52,095 nt of DNA from Chromera velia (lineage: Eukaryota). The notes under the pieces were generated by a model, which saw only the letters and a list, made by a program, of their open reading frames with translations, was not told the DNA's origin and did not search any database. This document shows, piece by piece, positions 14,201-17,200 of the stretch (positions are counted from its first letter, which is position 1; every line of letters begins with the position of its first letter). The stretch spans positions 1 through 52,095 of the forward strand of contig JAHBMJ010000255.1 of NCBI GenBank assembly GCA_018398765.1, given 5' to 3'. The position numbers and the translations under genes were made by a program.

Positions 14201-17200
14201 TGTCCTTTTTTCCATCTTGTTTTTCCGCAAAAGCAACGCAGGCAGATGAGATGAATGTAAAGGATGGATGTGCGGTTGCAGGTTTGACCTACGAGGCCCC
14301 TGCCCCTTTCGACCCCTCCCGTTCGATTGGAGAGGTCCTCCTTGTTCCTACCCGTGCTTACATCAAGGTGCTGCGTCCTCTGATGGAGAGGAAGGGGGCA
14401 GATGGGAAGCTGATGATCAAAAGTCTGGTGCCCATCACTGCGGGGGGCATTCTCGGATGTCTGAAGAAGACGTTGCCCGAGGGGGTGGGGGCAAGACTCG
14501 ACTGCACCAAGTGGGAACTTCCTGCAGTGTTCAGGTGGATGATGAAAATGGTCAGTGAGGAGCTGAAGGAAAGACCTTCCGTCAAGTGTTCTGATCGCGT
14601 GACAAAACAAAGAAGAGGAAAAAAGAAGAGACACAGAGCGATTCAAGGAAAGGCCGCCTCTGAATCTGCTGCTGAGAAGAAAAGGTTTTTTTCGATCTTT
14701 CTTTCTGCCTCTGTCCGTAAGTTGCTTCTGGGGGTTTGCTTTTCAATCGCACAAATTAGTTCTTTTGGCTCGTGGGCCTGCCCGAGAAAAGGGACGGTAG
14801 GGTGAGGAACGAGAGCTTCCGTTTCATTCACCAGATCGATAAGAATGTATCATCGAAAAAGGAGGGAGGCTGACAGTGTCCATTGGAGTGGAAATTCGAT
14901 CGATGTCTTTCAAAATAACAAAGAGGGGGGTAGCCCTGAGCTTCAGGTAAGAAAGGGGAGCACACGTTTATGCCTGGATGTGTATGGATGTCGTCCTCCG
15001 TCTCTTCCTCCGCCTCCCCCCCCCACCCCCTACTGCAGGGCCGCGTAGAGCCGAAGGAGATGGCGAAGACCTTCAACTGTGGTCTCGGCATGCTGGCAGT
15101 GGTCTCTGCAGCAGACGCGCCTCAGGTGGTGGAGGCTCTGCGAACAGAGGGCGACCGGGACGCGTCCATCGTGGGGACGCTGGCGCCTTGGAAGGAGACG
15201 GACAGCACGACGAACCCGGCACTCAGTGCAAAGAGGTACGCTAGCCAGGCAGGCAGGTAGGCAGGCAGGCAGCCTCTCCGTGTTTGGAAAGTGGATGGAC
15301 GTTTTGGTTTGGCTGCTAGTCTTTTTTCCTGCCTCTCTGTATCGCTGGGAGATTCTTTGAGCCTGGCCACCCTTTTGCCGGACGTGCCTTCCTCCATGAC
15401 GTTTTACGGGAACAGGAAAGCGGCTCTGGGCTTATTGCAATTGCGGATGACGAAACATTTTGTCTTGAAACGCGGCTGTCTTTTCAGCCGGGTGCTGATC
15501 GTTTTACATGATATCCGACGCTACAGACAATCAAAGGGAGAAAAGTATGAATGAAAGAGAACCAACCTGTCCTTGCTTGCTTCCTCTCAGTCAGAGACAA
15601 CGTGTCTGCATGCACCTCCCTGGATGGCTCTGGCCATTCATTGCACACCTTCCTTATTTATCTCATCTCATCTCACCCATGCACCCCGTCTCGTCTCCCT
15701 CTTTCTCTGTGCTCTCCTCTCCCCTTCTGTCGCCTTTCTCTTCTCTTTTCTGTTCTTCAGAGCCCGCATCCGAATCGAGCACGCAGAGACGGCGTGGCTC
15801 CAGCAGGACGCAGACCCGGCGATGGGCAGACAATCGGAGGGCATTCCTTTGGATTTGGTGGATCCGTTTGCAAAGAGGAAGGTGCAGGTGGGGGTTTTGG
15901 TCTCCGGGGAGGGGTCGAATCTTCAAGCGCTCATCGACTCTGCCAGACGGGAGGATTTCCCAGCCAAGATCGCGTTAGTGATCTCGAACGACCCTGAGGC
16001 GTACGGACTTGTGAGAGCCCGGCTTGCGGACATACCCACAGTCGTGGTGCAGCACAAGATGTACAAGTCCCGAGGGGAGTTTGAGAGCGATTTGACGAAG
16101 AGGTTGAAGGAGCATAACGTCGAGCTTGTGTGTCTGGCCGGCTGGATGCGCATCCTGACAGAGACTTTCGTCGACGAGTGGCCCAGCAAGATCCTGAACG
16201 TCCACCCCGCTCTTCTGCCAAGCTTTCCCGGACTGTACCCCCACCAGAGAGTTCTAGATGCGGGGTGCAGGGTGGCAGGGTGCACAGTCCACTACGTGAC
16301 CAAGGGCGCAGTCAACACAGGGCCCATCATCATCCAAGAAGCCATCGCGGTCAGTCAGTCAGTCAGTCAGTCTGCAAGAGTCATTCCGCAGGCCATCTCA
16401 CACAGCCAGTGAATGGTTTAGTCCACAAATCCACGGTCCTCTTTTCGAGAGCCTTCCGGTCACGTTTCTTTCTGATGTTTTTTCTTTTCTTTCTCTCTGC
16501 ATGGCCTCCAATTCCTTCCTTCACCTTTTTTCTCCCTCTAATTCTCACGTGCCTGCACGTCGGTGCCCTTCCCTCCGGCTTTCCAACACATGCAGTCGAC
16601 AGATCGATTGTGAAGCCCATCACACGCGCAGATGCCTCGTCACGGCTTGAAGGTGCAGGTGCTGGGGAAGGCCTGTGCAGTGTGTGTGAATGCATTCCTG
16701 CTGCGCGGAGTTCTGTCTGTGCTTGGCGGTAGTATATCGCCTTTGCAAATAAATTCACTCTAGCTGACACGTTGATACTTGGGTTGCAGGTCGGGGAGGA
16801 CGACAGCGCGCTGACCCTCTCTGAGCGAGTGAAGGTCCACTGTGAGTGGAGGGCATACCCCAAGGTGGGTGCGTGGTTGCGTGCGTCAAATCGAGGGAAG
16901 GGAAGGTGGAAAGTTTAATTTTCTTTTCGGGCAGCTCTTCCTTTGCTGCTTTCTTCTTCTTCTCGAGCCTTCGCGTTGTTCCCAGCATCGTTCTCTCTTT
17001 ATTTTTTCTTGGTCCAGTGGAGGGTGTTGAGGTCGTTTCATTTTTTTTTTTTTTTGTCCGTCGCGTGTCTTCTCCCTCCTGCCTTCTCGTAGAAAAGAGT
17101 GAGGGAGGTGGAGAGGGTGTTGGCTCTCTTTCCAGACTAACAGATGAGCAGTGTGCGTGCAATCAAAAGCAAAAGCCAGCGAACAAACTTTTTGAGCCGC

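What the first reader, a model, noticed from the sequence alone, without database searches (positions are those of the whole stretch)
16190..16349. PurN domain carries a natural Asp144-to-Asn change in the catalytic triad
Seen: NVHPALLP keeps the Asn106 and His108 equivalents, but HFVxxxxDxGP reads [12 protein letters not shown] (AAC at 16314-16316). The C-terminal EH motif reads EW. Established: Asn106/His108/Asp144 form the GAR transformylase catalytic triad, and Asp144 substitution cripples E. coli PurN. Inference: both C-terminal domains may be inactive, so the protein would be a PurF-PurD bienzyme with two ligand-sensing or scaffold domains. The PurN-like part could still bind GAR or 10-formyl-THF.
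Basis: partly seen in the sequence, partly recalled or inferred. Interest (0 to 1): 0.75.

Follow-up and report, generated by a model that had tools for sequence, protein, structure and literature searches.

The report
Disarmed domain in algal purine fusion
An alga related to malaria parasites joins four purine-making enzymes in one protein, and the last of them has swapped a key catalytic residue while staying otherwise intact, so it is likely a switched-off enzyme kept for binding or scaffolding, an early stage of a decay that has gone much further in dinoflagellate relatives.

Summary
AAC at 16314-16316 puts Asn at the Asp144 position of a PurN domain. That domain ends a 26-exon, 1814-aa PurF-PurD-PurM-PurN fusion identical to Chromera velia Cvel_16139. 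Spliced contigs of two runs (one study), carrying other allelic differences, keep AAC. Asp144 is Asp in 141 of 141 and 133 of 150 other PurN domains; the other 17 break off before it, and none has Asn. The 'EW' point is not a lesion: Glu173 is kept, and the Vitrella ortholog has EW with an intact triad. The domain is otherwise near-pristine (4 of 46 conserved columns changed) and evolves no faster than Vitrella's. The PurM domain looks dead (D65A, H247P). The family gives the context: all 21 dinoflagellate-type orthologs lost Asn106 and Asp144, and 13 of 23 appended a second, different PurM. Best reading: a folded, ligand-binding but catalytically crippled domain, with GAR formylation done by another gene. 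No genome was held and no such gene was found, so residual activity or a recent neutral loss remain live. A sensing role is untested. The scan's earlier notes held nothing relevant. New variant of a known kind; moderate interest.

The parts
3057..17520 (+). 26-exon gene, 1814 aa, PurF-PurD-PurM-PurN fusion (identical to C. velia Cvel_16139 / A0A0G4FC71)
   Evidence: All 25 introns GT-AG and the translation is identical to P0001; name; one 5645-nt spliced contig runs from PurF exon 10 to the PurN exon
3057..8207 (+). PurF (amidophosphoribosyltransferase) domain; Cys9 at 3081-3083, HVRYGT and [10 protein letters not shown] motifs kept
   Evidence: TIGR01134 hit 111 bits, below its 350 cut-off
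8582..12133 (+). PurD (GAR synthetase) domain, core motifs kept
   Evidence: TIGR00877 481 bits over cut-off 288; motifs; 21 of 148 conserved columns changed, against 15-29 in 25 of the other 31 fusion proteins
12612..15185 (+). PurM (AIR synthetase)-like domain, likely inactive: D65 to Ala (13123-13125), H247 to Pro (14431-14433); D94 and H190 kept
   Evidence: 26 of 89 conserved columns changed; branch 1.34 against 0.41 in Vitrella
15885..17490 (+). PurN (GAR transformylase)-like domain over exons 24-26
   Evidence: TIGR00639 218.7 bits over cut-off 150.1; model of exon-24 part pLDDT 94.8, rmsd 1.4 A to human GART
16197..16205 (+). Asn106 and His108 equivalents (N1718, H1720), intact
16314..16316 (+). 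AAC = Asn1757 at the catalytic Asp144 position
16844..16849 (+). Glu173 equivalent kept, followed by Trp in place of His174 (shared with Vitrella)

Best explanation
The gene encodes a PurF-PurD-PurM-PurN fusion whose PurN domain carries Asn at the Asp144 position; the domain is predicted to fold normally and likely still binds GAR and 10-formyl-THF, but likely transfers the formyl group poorly or not at all, so GAR formylation would be done by a separate, so far unidentified enzyme. Shown: the fusion, its splicing, the Asn, the kept contact residues, the equal evolutionary rate with triad-intact Vitrella, and the family pattern. Inferred: Asn cannot pair with and polarise His108 as the Asp carboxylate does, so catalysis collapses. 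Also inferred: the domain is kept because it does a non-catalytic job in the working PurF-PurD unit, most likely holding the product GAR or folate and stabilising the oligomer, together with the likely dead PurM domain. Chromera would be an early stage of a series in which this fusion repeatedly loses its rear activities but keeps the domains.
For: Asp144 is invariant elsewhere. PMC7926923 passages: E. coli D144H is inactive, and the equivalent PvdF D229H is dead yet still binds formyl-THF. Recalled, papers not held: E. coli D144N and human D144 mutants are inactive but bind both substrates. Contact positions G11, S12, N13, R64, G87, M89, R90, I91, L92, N106, H108, H121, H137, R168, K170 and E173 are all kept (the list of positions is recalled). 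4 of 46 conserved columns are changed against 2 in Vitrella. Branches are 0.53 and 0.50, and relative-rate p>0.6 with 5 of 5 outgroups. The neighbouring PurM lost D65 in both chromerids and in 23 of 23 dinoflagellate-type proteins yet is retained, and 13 of those 23 carry a second PurM-family domain. 21 of 21 dinoflagellate-type PurN domains lost N106 and D144 but remain as domains. One unnamed relative (P0082) carries an intact extra PurN beside the dead one. Perkinsus lacks the domain in its fusion.
Against: No replacement GAR transformylase was found for Chromera. No genome was held, and two lossy protein searches (even missed the Vitrella ortholog) listed none. Normal conservation fits a still-working enzyme, or a recent loss, equally well. 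The same paper says other substitutions at the E. coli triad kept some activity in vivo. In the dinoflagellate-type domains the GAR and folate contact residues are gone too, so retention there cannot rest on binding these ligands. No binding, activity or regulation data exist. Strain polymorphisms are too few to test selection (2 silent and 1 D to E in the exon, p=0.14).
Confidence: 0.45

Rival explanations
1. The domain is still the cell's GAR transformylase, a slow variant. Asn144 with His108, Asn106 and a bound water gives low turnover, made sufficient by GAR delivered from the fused PurD and by the altered 140-145 loop.
For: Everything else in the site is kept and the rate equals Vitrella's. 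No second purN was found. Some E. coli triad substitutions kept activity in vivo (PMC7926923 passage). The rest of the pathway is listed for Chromera (Woo et al. supplement 3).
Against: 0 Asn among 141 and 150 homologs examined. The loop TKGAVNTG has no acid that could stand in. The adjacent PurM already looks dead, so the fusion tolerates dead domains. Recalled: D144N is inactive in vitro.
Confidence: 0.27
2. A recent neutral loss. Another gene took over, the Asn change drifted to fixation, and the domain has no new role and has not had time to decay.
For: One G-to-A change suffices. Dinoflagellate-type orthologs show where such decay ends (20-27 of 46 columns). Equal rates over the long Chromera-Vitrella split cannot reveal a recent relaxation.
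Against: The change is shared by sequences that differ at other sites. In 21 relatives the dead domain was kept rather than deleted, although a C-terminal domain is easily lost, as in Perkinsus.
Confidence: 0.22
3. Asp is restored after transcription or translation, by A-to-G RNA editing of base 16314 under some condition or by deamidation of Asn1757.
For: AAC to GAC is a single A-to-G step and would explain the pristine site (sequence; inference).
Against: Spliced contigs of 2 of 2 covering runs show A. The predicted pairing probability of 16314 in the pre-mRNA is 0.09. Asn is followed by Thr, not Gly (slow deamidation; recalled). Contigs hide minor variants, so this is not excluded.
Confidence: 0.04
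4. Assembly or gene-model artefact (wrong base, or a hidden alternative exon supplying Asp).
For: The raw reads of the assembly were not seen; DNA run X2 did not cover the exon.
Against: Spliced contigs with their own alleles carry AAC and splice 16349 to 16790. No duplicate PurN exon lies in the window.
Confidence: 0.01

Closest known systems
PurN / GAR transformylase (EC 2.1.2.2; TIGR00639, PF00551), as in human trifunctional GART
   Same: About 51-53% identity to vertebrate GART domains, same predicted fold (rmsd 1.4 A), N106, H108, E173 and ligand contacts kept
   Different: Asn at 144, one extra loop residue, F88W, Tyr at 119, W174; fused behind PurF-PurD-PurM
Animal trifunctional GART (PurD-PurM-PurN), including insect forms with duplicated AIRS
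   Same: Same order of the three rear domains
   Different: PurF fused in front; PurM lacks D65 and H247, PurN lacks D144
Vitrella brassicaformis ortholog CEM21717.1 (P0066)
   Same: Same four domains, 66/53/47/60% identity, same HCEW motif, same PurM D65A
   Different: Keeps Asp144 and PurM His247
Dinoflagellate PurF-PurD-PurM*-PurN*(-PurM2) fusions (named: Polarella, Biecheleria, Pelagodinium, Effrenium, Dinoflagellata sp. MGD)
   Same: Same core architecture with non-catalytic-looking rear domains
   Different: PurN far more decayed, contact residues lost; 13 of 23 append a second PurM-family domain; 6 also show a broken PurD
Laboratory E. coli PurN D144 mutants and PvdF D229H
   Same: Same catalytic position changed; D229H is dead but binds formyl-THF
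   Different: Engineered; D144N data are recalled only, papers not held

Membership tests
PurN GAR transformylase | Score above curated family cut-off | tested here: met
   TIGR00639 218.7 against 150.1
PurN GAR transformylase | Formyltransferase fold | tested here: met
   Predicted model of 160 of about 200 residues, pLDDT 94.8, TM 0.91 to 5j9f
PurN GAR transformylase | Asn106 and His108 | tested here: met
PurN GAR transformylase | Catalytic Asp144 | tested here: not met
   Asn1757
PurN GAR transformylase | GAR-binding loop, Glu173 and folate contacts R64, R90 | tested here: met
   (position list recalled)
PurN GAR transformylase | Forms FGAR from GAR and 10-formyl-THF | not testable with these tools
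   needs assay
PurM AIR synthetase | Asp65, Asp94, His190, His247 (PMC3261824 passage) | tested here: not met
   Ala, Asp, His, Pro; each is invariant in 114 of 114 reference domains
PurD GAR synthetase | Cut-off score and core motifs | tested here: met
   a few unusual changes (GGETLL, TDHKR, FQAGT)
PurF amidophosphoribosyltransferase | N-terminal Cys after a short propeptide, PRPP-binding DD motif | tested here: met
   Cys9, [10 protein letters not shown]
PurF amidophosphoribosyltransferase | TIGR01134 cut-off | tested here: not met
   111 against 350; divergent subtype shared by all fusion relatives (its Bacteroidetes-type label is recalled, not tested)
Regulatory pseudoenzyme domain | No catalysis, ligand binding, and an effect on a partner enzyme | not testable with these tools
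   only sequence correlates

The most novel reading that the evidence does not exclude
Chromerids and dinoflagellates run the first steps of purine synthesis from a PurF-led fusion whose rear enzymes were converted, independently and step by step, into retained non-catalytic modules. Chromera's D144N domain is a natural substrate-trapping GAR/formyl-folate sensor that couples one-carbon supply to the committed step of purine synthesis.
Probability: 0.2. Interest if true: 0.8.

Novelty: new variant of a known kind. Interest (0 to 1): 0.55.

Why it matters
It is a natural version of a classic dead-but-binding enzyme mutant, in a wild gene, with a triad-intact sister (Vitrella) and fully decayed cousins (dinoflagellates) as built-in controls. 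That makes a graded series for testing how pseudoenzymes arise inside multifunctional proteins. It also shows that the purine pathway of the closest free-living relatives of Apicomplexa, which lost this pathway, is mis-annotated. The published table lists PurF as absent in Chromera although this gene encodes it, and credits 2.1.2.2, possibly on this domain. If no other GAR transformylase exists, either D144 is dispensable or an unknown route fills the step.

Tried and rejected
Whole-genome search for purN, purT or a second purM: no genome held. Protein searches for a second Chromera PurN, with the exon itself (281-2000 aa) and with the intact extra PurN of P0082 (355-2000 aa): none listed. Both are weak, and stand-alone PurN-sized proteins were outside both length ranges. 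Representatives search gives no names and did not list the Chromera or Vitrella proteins. Metagenome scan: 42 loci, best 31-56% identity, no close relative; not analysed further. ESM Atlas did not complete (6 tries). No holder was on record as RNA; RNA status rests on GT-AG joints. X2 and X7 gave no cover of the PurN exon. Rejected: EW as damage; a hidden duplicate exon; my own early note that 35-52 kb is bacterial (it is an intron-bearing DUF3638/DUF3645 gene). Earlier-findings look-ups gave nothing relevant. No complex prediction was run. Literature: 10 searches found no paper describing this fusion or a natural D144N; the library lacks most subscription journals, and bioRxiv supplements were closed.

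Full report
Observation. The stretch 16190-16349 lies in one exon (15761-16349) whose frame reads ...[54 protein letters not shown]. Aligned to human GAR transformylase, NVH gives Asn106 and His108, and the Asn encoded by AAC at 16314-16316 falls on Asp144, with one extra residue in the loop. The exon belongs to a 26-exon gene, 3057-17520, with all introns GT-AG. Its translation is identical to the 1814-aa protein P0001, labelled Chromera velia Cvel_16139. Domains are PurF, PurD, PurM and PurN. PurD, PurM and PurN pass their NCBIfam cut-offs; PurF does not (111 against 350).

Is the base real? I laid 4 runs on 13100-17600. Two runs of one study (X3, X4) cover the exon with spliced contigs. They differ from the window at 15905, 16091 and 16265 but not at 16314. 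The other two runs did not cover it. The allelic differences suggest another isolate, but without a matching DNA run that is inference, and contigs hide rare variants. One 5645-nt contig of X4 joins PurF exon 10 through PurD and PurM to the PurN exon, so the fusion is one transcript. No duplicate exon lies in the window, and base 16314 is not in a predicted duplex.

How unusual? The position is Asp in 141 of 141 non-fusion PurN domains, a set rich in animal GART. It is Asp in 133 of the 150 best cluster representatives; the other 17 stop or go out of frame before it, and none has Asn. Glu173 is kept, His174 varies (133 of 141), and the Vitrella ortholog reads HCEWK with a full triad.

State of the domain. 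Of 46 columns at least 95% conserved in the reference set, Chromera changes 4 (D1680E, D1757N, V1767I, P1768A) and Vitrella 2. The GAR-loop and folate contact positions I checked are kept except F88W, Tyr at 119 and the 141-145 loop (list recalled). The PurN tree of 36 rows gives end branches of 0.53 and 0.50, and relative-rate tests are flat with 5 of 5 outgroups. A model of the 160 exon-encoded residues has pLDDT 94.8 and matches human GART at 1.4 A. This shows the fold only, not side-chain chemistry.

The other domains. PurM lacks Asp65 (Ala) and His247 (Pro), two of four active-site residues named in PMC3261824 (passages) and invariant in 114 of 114 references. It changes 26 of 89 conserved columns and has a branch of 1.34 against 0.41; the relative-rate test is significant at 0.05 with 4 of 6 outgroups. 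PurD keeps its core motifs with a few odd changes. PurF keeps Cys9 and the PRPP motif and is somewhat faster than Vitrella's (0.46 against 0.26; 2 of 4 tests at p<0.05).

The family. A whole-protein search returned orthologous fusions from Vitrella, named dinoflagellates, Perkinsus and unnamed records. In 21 of 21 dinoflagellate-type proteins with a PurN part, Asn106 and Asp144 are gone (His108 remains in 9), with 20-27 of 46 columns changed. 'Dinoflagellate-type' rests on source names for some and on tree position for the subset. PurM Asp65 is lost in 23 of 23 of them and in both chromerids, but kept in Perkinsus and three unnamed proteins. Perkinsus groups with the dinoflagellates (92/92), which suggests two separate losses; I ran no formal clade test. 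Thirteen of the 23 append a second PurM-family domain of another type that keeps the D65 and H247 equivalents. Six also have a broken PurD (61-82 of 148 columns). P0082 carries an intact extra PurN in front of PurC-PurF-PurD-PurM and a dead rear PurN. Perkinsus has no rear PurN. Loss of the rear activities with retention of the domains, and replacement by other copies, is therefore the rule in this family, and Chromera's PurN sits at its start.

Mechanism. PMC7926923 (passages) states that ionised D144 pairs with H108, that E. coli D144H is inactive while other triad substitutions kept some activity in vivo, and that PvdF D229H is dead but binds formyl-THF. That D144N itself is inactive yet binds substrates (Inglese 1990; Manieri 2007 for human GART) is recalled; the papers I tried were not held. 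I therefore favour a folded, binding-competent, crippled domain kept for a non-catalytic role, with another gene doing the chemistry (0.45). Residual activity (0.27) and recent neutral loss (0.22) explain the same conservation. Editing or deamidation (0.04) and artefact (0.01) are unlikely. The chief gap is that no replacement enzyme was identified. Against a binding role as the family-wide reason, the dinoflagellate domains lost the contact residues too.

What is known. Woo et al. 2015 (passages; supplement 3 part 10; supplement searches, the first leaving 4 files unsearched) list purine synthesis in chromerids, with 2.1.2.2 present and 2.4.2.14 and 6.3.3.1 blank for Chromera. They give no gene ids, and the blank for 2.4.2.14 is contradicted by this gene. 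Passages of PMC6668581 (supplement 28, 85), PMC6320678, PMC6733595, PMC6482013 and PMC7789003 showed no account of this fusion; of PMC11831416 I saw one reference line (79). Ten searches found none either, within an open-access library.

Verdict. A real, natural catalytic-residue substitution. It fails the Asp144 test for an active PurN but is a PurN-family domain by score and fold. New variant of a known kind. The single change is modest; its place in a graded, apparently undescribed series of disarmed purine-enzyme domains is what makes it worth testing. Interest 0.55.

Noticed in passing
window 12612-15185: PurM domain lacks D65 and H247 and evolves about three times faster than Vitrella's; Chromera would need another AIR synthetase, none identified.
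   Followed up: yes
P0081, P0084, P0085, P0086, P0087, P0174: Six fusion relatives also have a broken PurD (ATP-grasp glycine loop deleted or altered, EFN motif lost), leaving PurF as the only intact-looking domain of four.
   Followed up: partly
P0067-P0079 (most), P0091, P0187: 13 of 23 dinoflagellate-type fusions end in a second, divergent PurM-family domain (MHADGAGTK type), a likely replacement enzyme.
   Followed up: partly
P0082: Unnamed 2369-aa, N-terminally cut protein: PurL-type glutaminase piece, intact PurN, PurC, PurF, PurD, PurM, dead PurN; possibly most of the pathway in one chain, or a chimeric assembly.
   Followed up: partly
P0090, P0455: C-terminal remnant invisible to Pfam but matched by a profile of the fusion PurN domains (E about 1e-17).
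   Followed up: partly
window 3075-3083: Residue before the PurF catalytic Cys is His (HHC) in Chromera and Vitrella, Glu (HEC) in the other 17 relatives that cover it; may bear on propeptide removal.
   Followed up: no
P0195: Unnamed 1564-aa GART with duplicated AIRS and formyltransferase domains whose first copies look degenerate.
   Followed up: no
window 21335-22441 (-): PPR-repeat ORF.
   Followed up: no
window 31983-32909 (+): Reverse transcriptase (RVT_1) fragment, likely a retroelement.
   Followed up: no
window 40224-44303 (-), probably extending toward 52095: Large intron-bearing gene with DUF3638 and DUF3645 domains; not modelled.
   Followed up: no
window 7619-7640, 8225-8245, 16350-16375: Several intron donors begin with runs of (GTCA)n.
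   Followed up: no
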